A stretch of DNA of 17,679 nucleotides from a virus. Below are positions 1-3,000 of this stretch, in pieces. The position numbers were made by a program. Positions within the stretch are counted from its first letter, which is position 1; every line of letters starts with the position of its first letter. Location of the stretch: UHGV virus genome UHGV-1847110. The stretch is one strand, 5' to 3'.

Positions 1-3000
1 TTTACATCGGTCTGCCGCAATGGTCGCATCCTAAATGGGTGCGGTTGGGGATCACCAGCCTTGAAGAGTACGCCCGCCACTTTAACTGCGTGACAGGACT
101 ATTTTAAAAATCACTAAAGAACGCCCAAGAGCATTCGCTTTCTTTAGTGTATTCAACACGTTAAAAATTAACACCATACGAAATTCGGTTAAGTTCGTAT
201 GTGTTATAGTGTCCCAACCATGTCCCAAAATGTCCCAAAACAGACATTTCTGTCCCATACATGCCCCAAGCAAATTCCACAATAGACAAGTAGTTTATTC
301 ATAAATTTACACGTAAAATCAATAGCGGCTGGAAATCATTCAATACTCGCATTATCGAAAGTTCTCCAGCCAGCCGCGGTGCGTTCTTGCATACGACGTG
401 CCGCGGCTTCTGTTATTCCACTATAAAATTCCTAATCGACTTCAAATCCCCCAGACTGCTCAGTTCTTCCCTTCATCTCCCTCCTACGGCGATAAATCTC
501 GTCATTGCGATCGACCTGCGCCTGCGCCATCTGTCAGCGCACCTGATATCACTACAGACATAGTTTTTCTCGCGATAAATTAAATCAGGAAGAGGCTTCC
601 GGAGAGACGGGCCATTCAATGGCGTTATATGAGGTTTTATCAGTGATGGTGCTGAAATCCATCGCCTGCAGCGATTTCGCGTAAATGCGCCAGACTGTCA
701 GCTTTTCTTTTTCTTCATCACCGATGATTCCCAAAAGTAAATCCGTCTTCTTATCGGATATTTCCCGTTCGGCAATCGCAGTAAGACGTGCACGCTCCGA
801 CTCTGCCTGCTGCCTGTAGTCAACAGGGACCGGTAGTACTTCACCGTCTTTATAATACCAGCGCGCCTCTATACAAAAGCCATCCGGTAGTTCATCCACT
901 TCCACAATGGTAAAACCAACGGGATAAAGACGGGATACATCTTCCGCCACGGAATAAATAACGCCGGTTTCAGGATGCGTGCACAGCTTGTATTTCTTCG
1001 TGAATTTATCCAGTGATTCATAAAAATCCTGCCCGTCTTCACTACGGAAATACTGAATGCCGTCACCATAAGGCATGTCTTCAGGGTAGTAACGCGTAAT
1101 GTTTGAGAGTTCCATTATTTTCTCCTTAATTAACCTGATACAGATCGCCATGCACCATTAATATAAATCTGAGCCTGTTTGTAATACACGCCACCGATAT
1201 TGTCTGCAGAGTTACGGCCAGTATCCTGAACATTAATGCCTGACAAAACACAACCAGAAGGTGCTCGAAACGTCCAGCTGTGCTCGTTCCCGCCCGGGTT
1301 GTAAAACACCTCACTGGTATACTGAAAATTCTGTACGCCACCTGTTTTGGTCTGGTAGCGGGCATCGAAGTTTCCGTAGTCTGACGGTATAACCTGACGC
1401 CCGCATCGCCAGTTTCCCGCATCATCCATATACGCCTGACCGTCCGTACCATTATCCGTACGGCTATTATTTATCATGTAAATGCCAAACTGCTTATTCC
1501 CAAGACCAGCCAGGAAATACTTTCTGTCTGCATGATCCTGACGCAGAAGCGCCTGAGCAGCATCAGTATTTATCCTGTTTTTCCCGAAAATAACGTTGTT
1601 GTCACGCATCTGAATCCACGTTCCGTTACTGCTGTTAATCGCAAAACGGCCTGCAAATACATCTTCTGTAACATCCAGACCGTGTCCCATAGTTATGCGA
1701 CCGGTCCTGAGATTAAGCGTAAAGGGGCGTAGCGGCCCAATATCACCACTCTCGCCCTGATTTTCCCGGGTAGGAATGAGGTACAGACACTCTTCCGAAC
1801 GACGAAAAATCAGACCAAAGGCTTCGTTGAAAATCCTCAGTGCATTAACGCCACGGATTTTCAGCTCCCCGGTCATGGTGTCTCCATCACGCTGAACGGC
1901 ATTTTTTGCCTTATCCACCGTGGGTTTTAATCCGAGGTTTTCAACAGCCTCATCACTGTCTTCGACATCCGAAAGATTATTTTTTATCAGCAATGCCTCT
2001 TCGTTAATTGCACCGCCCACCAGTAATAATATGGCTTTATATAACTGGTCGTGTTCCTCTTTATTCAGTTCTATCCCGGCCTTCTCAATGACACCACAGA
2101 TTTCCTCCTGAAGGGCATCCCACATGGCACTGTTCAGCCAGGTGGCATGACGCCCTGTACGAATATTCCCGTCAGTAAATCCGTTCTTGCCCGGGCCAAA
2201 TTTATCTTTAACTGCTGTCGGAGTGTCAATTCTGTGCATATTAAACCTCCCGTGAATGAAATATCAGAATTATGTCCTTGCCTGATTAAACAATTCCGCT
2301 GTGAAAGTCAGTTCACCCTTTGTGAAAGGCGTTTCTCCGCCTGGCTGGGCCATAAAACTCTGTGAGACAGTCGTCCAGCTGTTTGTGTCGCTTTGTACGC
2401 CATTCTCTGTAATCGTTGCACCTGCATGGCTGCCATTTTTCACTTTCCAGGCCAGGCGGTTATTGGGGGCATCAGCACCGCGGTAAGTGACCGAGGCCAT
2501 AACGGCCACAACATCACTGTTGACGTTATCCACCGCACCAAACGTGGCCTGTGCGGCATTCAGGGACGGCGAGAGCATCAGATATCCGGCCTCGCTGTCA
2601 GAGGTGTTCAGCCCCGTGACAATATCTTTATTCAGTGAGTTTTTGGCGCTTCCACCGGTAAATGCCGTTACCGGGCTGTATCTGACCTCAATGCTTCCGA
2701 GCAGGGCGGGTTCTGCACTATTATTTCTACCGTATGTCACTGTTCCACAGTACATATCACCCAGCATTAACGTGCCGGATGCACCCGATGAAAAAATATT
2801 GTCACCACTACCAATACTCACCTGAATTTTGTCAGTCCGGTCATCTGATACATAAAACGATGCATTTCCAACTAATGAGCGGTTGCAGTACAGACTGGCT
2901 GAGACATAGCCGTTTTCGTTTCGCGTTGCGAAAATTTCATAGTAATAACTGGCTGCTTCATCAGGATACGGGGTTGTAAATGAATAGCCATTAATCCTGA

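What the first reader, a model, noticed from the sequence alone, without database searches (positions are those of the whole stretch)
175..269. Helically phased TGTCCCAA repeat array next to an inverted repeat, in non-coding DNA beyond the last late gene
Five copies of an 8-mer in direct orientation with centre-to-centre spacings of 11, 10, 20 and 11 bp place the sites on one face of the helix. That is the usual architecture for cooperative binding by a regulator or for arm-type sites of an integrase or excisionase. The adjacent perfect inverted repeat CATACGAA-N11-TTCGTATG could be a dimeric-protein operator. The motif matches no consensus I know (lambda Int arm, Xis, IHF, Mu repressor, Gin/Hin).
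Basis: seen in the sequence. Interest (0 to 1): 0.5.

Follow-up and report, generated by a model that had tools for sequence, protein, structure and literature searches.

The report
Integrase arm sites at prophage junction
The repeated TGTCCCAA motif is most likely the set of accessory ("arm-type") docking sites that a phage integrase uses to fold its attachment site for integration into, and excision from, the E. coli yecE gene; this is a textbook kind of element, here for a large integrase family for which I found no published map of these sites.

Summary
Five direct copies of TG[T/C]CCCA[A/T] start at 210, 221, 231, 251 and 262, next to the inverted repeat at 175-201. Shuffled sequence never gave a cluster of more than two.

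The window starts in the host gene yecE. An 11-bp crossover core (82-92) begins a phiP27-like prophage of about 40 kb. In near-identical genomes its integrase and excisionase lie at the far end.

The same motif occurs twice, 11 bp apart and in the same orientation, on the other arm. There it sits inside the 3' end of int, 66-94 bp from the core.

This two-arm layout recurs in six integrase lineages that share 44-99% identity and use different attB sites (yecE, wrbA, ttcA and one I did not determine). It is found in 76 of 80 related integrase loci across Enterobacterales. It is also found in 78 of 98 distinct far arms from viral contigs, with spacings of 11, 20 or 30 bp.

The integrase has an N-terminal arm-binding domain (PF12167). 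This is its most conserved part.

Best reading (about 0.85): the repeats are arm-type sites for the integrase.

The inverted repeat is a conserved accessory element. It may be a pair of excisionase sites or a hairpin; this is unresolved.

The kind of element is known, but I found no published map of these sites for this family. Nothing here tests binding directly.

The parts
1..92 (+). 5' end of the host gene yecE (DUF72), the bacterial half of the junction
   Evidence: Annotated as a truncated DUF72 gene in a near-identical genome. Window 1-92 joined to the DNA beyond the far core is contiguous yecE in 4903 of 5426 E. coli genomes.
82..92 (+). 11-bp crossover core TTAACTGCGTG, duplicated at the other prophage end
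   Evidence: The same 11-mer lies at L001 42567-42577, just after int. The phiP27 record annotates it as attL and attR.
106..132 (+). Conserved core-proximal block AAAAATCACTAAAGAACGCCCAAGAGC; candidate accessory-protein site, binding protein not assigned
   Evidence: It is conserved in the yecE, wrbA and SaltyDalty lineages, although their cores and the rest of the arm differ. It worked as a search anchor: in 78 of 98 distinct viral-contig arms that carry it, an array starts 92-96 nt downstream.
151..163 (+). IHF-like site ATTCAACACGTTA, one mismatch to WATCAANNNNTTR
   Evidence: Found. The same position in PhiR49_2 reads AATCAAAGCGTTG, a perfect match to the consensus. TTCAAnnnnTTA is present in phiP27, Rac and Stx2 II. 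Assignment to IHF is an inference.
175..201 (.). Inverted repeat CATACGAA-N11-TTCGTATG. It can also be read as two 10-bp-phased yGAAnTTy units. Candidate excisionase (DUF1233) sites, or a hairpin.
   Evidence: In 23 distinct versions, 95% of stem cells are paired and two pairs change on both sides. The covariation score is 0.157 against 0.121 in shuffles (1 of 500 reach it). Other lineages have direct repeats at the same place.
210..269 (+). Far-arm (P-arm) array of five putative integrase arm-type sites, at 210-217, 221-228, 231-238, 251-258 and 262-269
   Evidence: for the observation. for the matching doublet on the other arm. for six lineages. for the family-wide surveys.

Best explanation
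The array at 210-269 is the far-arm (P-arm) cluster of arm-type binding sites for the prophage's own tyrosine integrase. The window holds the int-distal junction of a phiP27-like prophage inserted in yecE. This is attR in lambda nomenclature and in the phiP27 record.

The integrase has two DNA-binding specificities. Its core-binding and catalytic domains act at the 11-bp core (82-92). Its small N-terminal domain would bind the motif aTG(C/T)CCCA. In the excised phage the motif lies on both sides of the core: two copies 66-94 bp away inside the 3' end of int, and five copies 118-177 bp away on this side. All seven have the same orientation.

Bending proteins would fold the arms back so that integrase molecules bridge arm and core. 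IHF-like sites lie on both arms, and there are probably excisionase sites at 175-201. The folded complex would then carry out integration or excision. The 10- to 11-bp phasing puts adjacent sites on one face of the helix, which suits cooperative binding.

Shown: the anatomy, the two-arm distribution, the conservation and the domain content. Inferred: that the integrase N-terminal domain is the binding protein, and which sites serve integration and which serve excision.
For: 1. Location. The array is 118-177 bp inside a prophage end that is defined to the base by the duplicated core and by the empty yecE site.

2. Both arms. TGTCCCAA and TGTCCCAT lie 11 bp apart on the + strand at L001 42483-42501, inside int. 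These two and the five array copies make seven of the ten TG[CT]CCCA[AT] matches in 48 kb.

3. Cognate protein. The integrase has Pfam Arm-DNA-bind_2 (PF12167, residues 7-70, E 1e-23) plus Phage_integrase. The model of residues 8-56 is confident and shows three strands followed by a helix. The best fold match is full-length lambda Int. PMC8138268 places DUF3596 integrases in an arm-binding subgroup it calls 'IntBPP-1'. The genome closest to the window encodes the identical integrase and excisionase proteins.

4. Same layout in six lineages that use different attB sites. These are phiP27 and PPyecE (yecE), Stx2 II (wrbA), Rac (ttcA) and SaltyDalty (site not determined). Each has a doublet 64-93 bp from the core on the int side and an array starting about 130-160 bp from the core on the far side, even where the rest of the arm cannot be aligned.

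5. The arm-binding domain is the most conserved part of the integrase: 86, 77, 81 and 50% identity, against 70, 61, 55 and 29% for the core-binding region. This matches a constant arm motif with changing cores.

6. In 76 of 80 integrase loci from many genera (43-90% identity) there is exactly one G[CT]CCC-N6-G[CT]CCC doublet, always at the int 3' end. In the Rac-like group it lies after the stop codon, so it is not a coding constraint. Only one such doublet was found on the opposite strand in 656 kb scanned.

7. In 78 of 98 distinct far arms from viral contigs, arrays of 2-5 copies occur with spacings of 11 (108 cases), 20 (21), 10 (7) and 30 (6). Positions left free in the search are 97% T (position -1) and 97% A (position +5). 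There are 243 hits on the + strand against 15 on the - strand.

8. An old fossil copy of this junction, in prophages at ompW whose integration site is elsewhere, has decayed sites 4 and 5 (TGCCCTAT and CGTTCCAA).
Against: No binding experiment exists for this integrase. I found no published map of arm sites for this family, so the binding protein is inferred.

The excisionase family (DUF1233) co-occurs with the integrase in 49 of 54 loci. Co-occurrence therefore cannot separate the two candidate binding proteins.

The integrase itself is not inside the window. It is read from genomes 99.1-99.7% identical over window 1-1200.

The structure model is poor outside the N-terminal and core-binding parts (mean pLDDT 54). 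The fold match to lambda Int has low TM-scores.

The younger fossil copies in phi80 and mEp237 still keep four good sites although those phages use a different integrase. Retention alone is therefore not proof of function.
Confidence: 0.85

Rival explanations
1. The array is bound by the excisionase (the DUF1233 recombination directionality factor), which would form a head-to-tail filament like lambda Xis on X1-X1.5-X2 or P2 Cox on its boxes. The integrase arm sites would then lie elsewhere.
For: The repeats are direct and helically phased on the int-distal arm, which is where lambda Xis acts (established knowledge). The Rac homologue XisR shifts a 294-bp attR fragment (PMC4632033). DUF1233 genes accompany the integrase in 49 of 54 loci.
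Against: The motif is also present as a fixed doublet on the int-proximal arm in 76 of 80 loci, where Xis-type factors normally have no sites. The motif stays constant where the excisionase has diverged to 31-49% identity, while the integrase arm-binding domain stays at 50-86%. No other repeat shared by both arms is available to serve as the integrase arm sites. A separate pair of repeats directly abutting the array (175-201) is a better candidate for the excisionase.
Confidence: 0.08
2. The array is an operator or promoter-control region for a phage regulator or for neighbouring cargo such as dinI. Alternatively it is a replication or partition iteron set unrelated to recombination.
For: Phased direct repeats are also typical of iterons and of cooperative repressors. 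In several relatives a LexA-controlled dinI gene sits immediately beyond the array.
Against: This window has no dinI or other gene next to the array, and no promoter-like site in 1-700. The array keeps a fixed distance from the crossover core and from the conserved block whatever lies beyond it. The second cluster sits inside the int 3' end. The replication genes are about 30 kb away.
Confidence: 0.04
3. These are end-binding sites for a Mu-type transposase. This was my first thought, because the tail genes are Mu-like and the element interrupts a gene.
For: The tail and baseplate genes are Mu-like. The insertion is inside yecE. Mu ends carry several transposase sites within about 180 bp (established knowledge).
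Against: The prophage encodes a tyrosine integrase and an excisionase and no transposase. It is flanked by an 11-bp identity at one fixed site in yecE that many independent phages use. The copies at the two ends are in direct orientation, not inverted.
Confidence: 0.01
4. For the inverted repeat 175-201 only: it acts as a hairpin in the + strand transcript that reads out of int across the attachment site of the excised phage. It would be a terminator or processing site like lambda tI/sib, and would be separated from int once the phage integrates.
For: The fold is better than shuffles (-11.3 kcal/mol, z -3.1). Across 23 versions, 95% of stem cells pair and two pairs change on both sides. All nine G.U cells are compatible with the + strand only. 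The covariation score is reached by 1 of 500 shuffles. The + strand is the int sense strand.
Against: The stem is short and A+T-rich, there is no U tract, and the terminator scan gives no call. The shuffle control can be exceeded through relatedness alone. Sister lineages have direct repeats that cannot form a hairpin at the same position. No Rfam family matches.
Confidence: 0.2

Closest known systems
Lambda attP arm-type sites (P1 and P2 on the P arm; P'1-P'3 on the P' arm), with IHF and Xis sites
   Same: The integrase has two DNA-binding specificities. A short motif unrelated to the core is repeated on both arms within about 180 bp of the crossover. Adjacent copies are about 10-11 bp apart. 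The int gene ends next to the P' arm. IHF-like sites lie between arm sites and core. A further pair of repeats abuts the arm sites on the int-distal arm, where lambda has its Xis sites. The lambda layout is taken from established knowledge.
   Different: The motif (aTGYCCCA) and the family of the arm-binding domain differ (PF12167, not the lambda Int N-terminal family; no sequence-level PDB match for residues 1-90). The P' arm has a doublet rather than a triplet, and that doublet is usually inside the int coding sequence. The P arm has 2-5 tandem copies instead of two separated ones. No site has been tested biochemically.
Phage phiP27 attachment site in yecE (record AJ298298) and the yecE-type Stx prophages (PMC8112680)
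   Same: Same crossover core, same host gene, integrase 97% identical and the same five-copy array. The window's prophage belongs to this group.
   Different: The phiP27 record annotates only the 11-bp attL and attR and places a hypothetical ORF (L58) over the array. PMC8112680 defines a 21-bp att sequence for the yecE-type Stx prophages and does not use the word 'arm'.
Rac prophage IntR and XisR (YdaQ) of E. coli K-12
   Same: Same integrase and excisionase families (integrase 44% and excisionase 31% identical). The Rac-SA53 record has TTGCCCCAT-type repeats on both arms with spacings of 11, 19 and 11 bp. XisR binds an attR fragment (PMC4632033).
   Different: The crossover site is different (ttcA). 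The int-proximal doublet lies after the stop codon. The binding sites within the attR fragment were not mapped in that paper.
Mycobacteriophage L5 attP (arm-type sites arranged in pairs, with Xis sites on one arm)
   Same: Arm-type sites occur as closely spaced direct pairs, and different pairs are used for integration and excision (from memory, not checked here).
   Different: The integrase lineage and the host are unrelated, and the host bending factor is different (mIHF).

Membership tests
Arm-type sites of a tyrosine integrase with separate arm- and core-binding domains (lambda Int paradigm) | The element encodes a tyrosine integrase with an extra N-terminal arm-binding domain | tested here: met
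   PF12167 Arm-DNA-bind_2 at residues 7-70 (E 1e-23) plus PF00589. The modelled residues 8-56 show three strands then a helix. The integrase is read from genomes 99.1-99.7% identical to window 1-1200, not from the window itself.
Arm-type sites of a tyrosine integrase with separate arm- and core-binding domains (lambda Int paradigm) | The motif is repeated on both arms of attP, flanks the crossover core, and differs in sequence from the core | tested here: met
   Five copies at window 210-269 and two at L001 42483-42501. The core TTAACTGCGTG is unrelated to the motif. The same holds in five further lineages.
Arm-type sites of a tyrosine integrase with separate arm- and core-binding domains (lambda Int paradigm) | The motif follows the arm-binding domain rather than the core specificity across relatives | tested here: met
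   The motif is constant across the yecE, wrbA and ttcA cores. The arm-binding domain is the most conserved part of the integrase. 76 of 80 loci carry the doublet.
Arm-type sites of a tyrosine integrase with separate arm- and core-binding domains (lambda Int paradigm) | Sites for DNA-bending proteins lie between the arm sites and the core | tested here: inconclusive
   WATCAN....TTR lies exactly 30-34 nt after the doublet in 31 of 76 loci, against a background of 0.005 per 70 nt. A one-mismatch site is at window 151-163. These are consensus matches only.
Arm-type sites of a tyrosine integrase with separate arm- and core-binding domains (lambda Int paradigm) | The integrase N-terminal domain binds the motif directly, and recombination requires it | not testable with these tools
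   Needs EMSA or footprinting and att-site mutagenesis.
IntBPP-1 / DUF3596 subgroup of arm-binding tyrosine recombinases (PMC8138268); this concerns the integrase | An arm-binding domain matching PF12167 with three strands and one helix, and relatives that include Stx-phage integrases | tested here: met
Excisionase (Xis / Cox / Apl type) binding-site array | Phased direct repeats confined to one arm of attP | tested here: not met
   The array motif is on both arms. The feature could still hold for the separate repeats at 175-201, which were seen only on the int-distal arm.
Mu-type transposable-phage end | A transposase gene, inverted terminal binding sites and variable insertion sites | tested here: not met
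   The element has an integrase and an excisionase and no transposase. The sites at the two ends are in direct orientation. The core in yecE is fixed.
Intrinsic terminator or lambda sib-like hairpin (for 175-201) | A G+C-rich stem followed by a U tract, or a documented RNase III site | tested here: not met
   The scan calls no terminator in 93-300 and the stem is A+T-rich. The RNase III part cannot be tested here.

The most novel reading that the evidence does not exclude
The int-distal arm may do two jobs. Besides carrying integrase arm sites, its + strand could form the covarying hairpin at 175-201 in int transcripts that read across the attachment site of the excised phage. Such a hairpin could also involve the stem at 112-149 or the strong double hairpin at 327-408. 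Int expression would then be shut off after excision and released in the prophage, where integration separates the hairpin from int. This would be a lambda-sib-like retroregulator arising independently in the DUF3596 integrase family.
Probability: 0.12. Interest if true: 0.5.

Novelty: new member of a known kind. Interest (0 to 1): 0.3.

Why it matters
The kind of element is textbook. The integrase family it serves is large and medically relevant. It includes the integrases of Shiga-toxin phages at yecE and wrbA, phiP27 and the Rac prophage, with relatives across Enterobacterales.

In the literature I could search, only short att cores are defined for these integrases. A family-wide signature would help in three ways. 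The signature is aTGYCCCA, a doublet at the int 3' end followed about 30 nt later by an IHF-like site, then the core, a conserved block, and an array 92-96 nt after that block.
- Prophage ends and attP could be located to the base from sequence alone.
- Live attachment sites could be told apart from fossil ones, such as the yecE-derived secondary attB sites inside other prophages.
- It gives defined substrates for testing how these Stx prophages integrate and excise.

Tried and rejected
1. The Mu-type transposable-phage end was my first guess, from the Mu-like tail genes and the interrupted host gene. The full prophage map rejected it.

2. Real gene over the array. I rejected the ORF at 82-282 (minus strand) and the phiP27 'L58' annotation. 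The ORF crosses the crossover core, the repeat spacing breaks the reading frame, and the motif persists in arms that cannot be aligned.

3. Known RNA. Rfam on 1-700 gave only a sub-threshold hit at 375-430 (23 bits against a gathering score of 76), outside the finding.

4. Promoter and terminator scan of 1-700. It found no promoter and only one terminator-like site, at 588-600 next to the tail-fibre assembly gene.

5. Viral-contig search with the single integrase protein returned only relatives at 90% identity or more, mostly cut at the int stop codon. It was useless for diversity. The alignment-based genome scan and the block-anchored DNA scan replaced it.

6. A k-mer search for a shared excisionase motif in the arms was swamped by A+T-rich words. 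The yGAAnTTy reading of 175-201 rests on inspection by eye.

7. Sequence search of solved structures found no match for the integrase N-terminal domain. It found only a weak match for the excisionase (2kvv, E 8e-4).

8. The AlphaFold model of the full integrase was poor outside residues 8-190, so the fold search supports the assignment only weakly.

9. Six literature searches found no paper that maps arm sites for this family. The library lacks most subscription journals, so this is not proof that none exists.
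Full report
**1. The observation**

The + strand carries TGTCCCAA at 210, 221 and 231, TGTCCCAT at 251 and TGCCCCAA at 262. Directly before them lies the inverted repeat CATACGAA-N11-TTCGTATG at 175-201.

Across the whole window the 8-mer with one mismatch is not enriched (12 matches, 17 expected). The clustering is what stands out. For TG[CT]CCCA[AT], no cluster larger than two occurred in 2000 shuffles, against five observed. The offsets 0, 11, 21, 41 and 52 correspond to whole helical turns within about 0.1 turn.

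The DNA is non-coding. The last late gene, for tail-fibre assembly, ends at 585. The one ORF over the array crosses the recombination core, and the repeat spacing breaks its frame.

**2. Where the array sits**

Window 1-92 is the 5' end of E. coli yecE. A near-identical genome (99.1% over window 1-1200) shows a prophage of about 40.5 kb at this place. Its genes, in the window's orientation, are:
- a Mu-like tail module and an HK97-like head module on the minus strand;
- lysis genes, tRNAs, replication genes and a repressor region;
- at the far end, an excisionase (78 aa) and a tyrosine integrase (437 aa), followed by the rest of yecE.

The 11-mer TTAACTGCGTG occurs at window 82-92 and again just after int. 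Joining window 1-92 to the DNA beyond the far copy gives an intact yecE found in 4903 of 5426 E. coli genomes. The genome closest to the window (99.7%) encodes the identical integrase and excisionase proteins.

The prophage is a relative of phiP27, whose record annotates the same 11 bp as attL and attR. The window therefore holds the int-distal junction. The array lies 118-177 bp inside the phage from the core.

My first idea, a Mu-type transposable-phage end, is excluded by this map.

**3. The motif is on both arms**

The other end carries TGTCCCAA and TGTCCCAT, 11 bp apart, in the same orientation, 66-94 bp from the core and inside the last codons of int. In 48 kb, seven of the ten matches to TG[CT]CCCA[AT] are these att-proximal copies.

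In the excised circular phage the order is: two sites, core, five sites, all pointing the same way.

**4. The protein that fits**

The integrase has a Pfam arm DNA-binding domain (PF12167, formerly DUF3596; residues 7-70, E 1e-23) in front of the catalytic domain.

A structure model is poor overall. It is confident for residues 8-56, which form three strands and a helix. The best fold match is full-length lambda integrase. A published survey of tyrosine recombinases places DUF3596 integrases, including those of Stx2a, Gifsy-2 and BPP-1 phages, in an arm-binding subgroup with this three-strand, one-helix domain (PMC8138268).

The excisionase belongs to DUF1233.

**5. Comparative test: six lineages with both arms in hand**

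| Phage | Integrase identity to the window's | attB | int-side arm | Far arm |
|---|---|---|---|---|
| phiP27 | 97% | yecE | 2 copies | 5 copies |
| PPyecE_EH1910 | 75% | yecE | 2 copies | 3 copies; rest of arm not alignable |
| Stx2 II | 67% | wrbA | 2 copies | 4 copies, spacings 11, 20, 11 |
| SaltyDalty | 64% | not determined | 2 copies | 2 copies |
| Rac-SA53 | 44% | ttcA | doublet after the int stop codon | 3 copies plus a degenerate fourth |

The window's own prophage is the sixth lineage.

Distances to the core are conserved: 64-93 bp on the int side, and about 130-160 bp to the first far-arm site.

The arm-binding domain is the best-conserved part of the integrase (86, 77, 81 and 50% identity). 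The core-binding region has diverged more (70, 61, 55 and 29%). That is what one expects if the arm motif is kept while the core specificity changes.

**6. Comparative test: family-wide surveys**

A scan of one genome per species with an alignment of these integrases returned 80 loci, at 43-90% identity. They come from Citrobacter, Enterobacter, Klebsiella, Pantoea, Yersinia, Xenorhabdus, Providencia, Proteus and other genera.

In 76 of them there is exactly one G[CT]CCC-N6-G[CT]CCC doublet, always at the int 3' end. Only one such doublet was found on the opposite strand in 656 kb scanned. In 31 of the 76, a WATCAN....TTR element follows exactly 30-34 nt later, against a background of 0.005 per 70 nt. 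I read this as an IHF-like site.

For the far arm I scanned viral contigs with the conserved core-proximal block (window 116-132). Of 98 distinct arms, 78 have an array starting 92-96 nt after the block.
- Copy numbers: 2 copies in 42 arms, 3 in 7, 4 in 20 and 5 in 9.
- Spacings: 11 (108 cases), 20 (21), 10 (7) and 30 (6).
- Positions not fixed by the search are 97% T before the G and 97% A after the CCC.
- The motif is on the + strand in 243 cases against 15 on the - strand.

Gaps and copy-number differences come in units of about 10 bp. The phi80-type copies lack exactly one 10-bp unit relative to the window. Helical phase is therefore preserved.

**7. Fossil junctions**

Phi80, mEp237 and the prophages at ompW carry a captured yecE'-core-arm fragment far from their own attachment sites. 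The literature knows this fragment as a secondary attB inside prophages, derived from yecE (PMC8112680).

In the oldest-looking copy (ompW prophages) the yecE part has stop codons, and sites 4 and 5 have decayed to TGCCCTAT and CGTTCCAA. The younger phi80 and mEp237 copies still have four good sites. This is weakly consistent with selection only where the cognate integrase uses the arm.

**8. Mechanism proposed**

By analogy with lambda (established knowledge), integrase protomers would bind arm sites through the N-terminal domain and core sites through the other domains. IHF-type bends on both arms would bring arms and core together.

The constant minimum of one doublet per arm would supply four arm contacts for a tetramer. 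The extra far-arm copies could be used differently in integration and excision. These steps are inferred, and nothing here tests binding.

**9. The inverted repeat**

It is conserved in the window's lineage. Across 23 distinct versions, 95% of stem cells pair and two pairs change on both sides. All nine G.U cells are acceptable on the + strand only. The covariation score is reached by 1 of 500 shuffles. The tool warns that related sequences can give this result without any structure.

In the other lineages the same position, directly abutting the first arm site, holds two direct repeats 10 bp apart: CGAACTTC/CGAATTTC, CGAACTTT/CGAACTTC and TGAACTTT/CGAATTTT. The window's sequence can be read the same way, as CGAAATTC/TTAAGTTC.

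In lambda the excisionase sites abut an arm-type site on this arm. The Rac homologue of the excisionase binds an attR fragment (PMC4632033).

I therefore rank excisionase sites first (about 0.4) and a + strand hairpin in int read-through transcripts second (about 0.2). I leave the rest open.

**10. What is known and what is new**

The kind of element is textbook. For this integrase family I found only short att cores in records and papers, and no arm-site map. The searchable library is incomplete.

I file the array as a new member of a known kind. Interest is modest. Its practical value is for locating attP and prophage ends of Stx-type, phiP27-type and Rac-type elements.

Noticed in passing
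window 327-408 (also Rac-SA53 L011 about 880-960, phi80 L003 about 3575-3650, phiP27 L002 245-325, PPyecE L005 about 855-935): Two adjacent strong hairpins (about -38 to -41 kcal/mol, z about -5.2 on either strand) are almost identical in many otherwise different phages. They always lie beyond the arm-site array, even when dinI is inserted in between. PGAP calls part of the region a 'capsid protein' pseudogene. It may be a bidirectional terminator between the convergent int and late-gene transcripts, or a module-boundary recombination hotspot. BLAST homology to non-yecE phages starts at 369 or 429.
   Followed up: partly
L001 42528-43298 (far prophage end, outside the window): After integration, the 3' part of yecE is annotated as an intact 256-aa DUF72 gene. 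Its first 16 codons or so come from phage DNA and overlap the end of int, with an ATT start in the annotation. The phage may supply a replacement 5' end for the gene it interrupts, as reported for Rac and ttcA in PMC4632033.
   Followed up: no
L003 2938-3210 (phi80), L175 540-800 (mEp237), L004 700-970 (prophage at ompW): A fossil yecE'-core-arm junction is carried inside phages that integrate elsewhere. It has a near-intact yecE start in phi80 and mEp237 and a decayed one in the ompW prophages. It is known as the secondary attB 'attB-in-PP_1'. Because it brings far-arm sites with it, that secondary site is attR-like rather than a plain attB. This could affect the direction of recombination there.
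   Followed up: partly
window 106-132: The core-proximal block AAAAATCACTAAAGAACGCCCAAGAGC is conserved across lineages with different crossover cores. In the window's lineage only, it forms a stem with 137-149. It does not match the IHF consensus, and I could not assign a binding protein.
   Followed up: partly
L005 587-835, L003 3295-3534, L009 3148-3414, L174 265-513: In many relatives a dinI/msgA gene with a LexA box is inserted between the arm-site array and the double hairpin. The window's prophage and phiP27 lack it. This position appears to be a preferred cargo slot.
   Followed up: no
Integrase C-terminal tail (L001 about 42478-42546; alignment A2, columns 425-447): The last residues of the integrase (VPMMSH, VPYMPH, APDVPQ, APSLPQ) are the translation of the arm-site doublet, and they vary in length. 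The Rac-like proteins stop before the doublet. The tail looks like read-through of a DNA element rather than a constrained part of the protein.
   Followed up: partly
L163-L172 (Rac-like integrases of Enterobacter, Klebsiella, Raoultella and Pluralibacter): In this subgroup the int-side doublet reads GCCCCT rather than GCCCCA. Whether the far arm of the same elements carries the same change could not be checked with the tools available.
   Followed up: no
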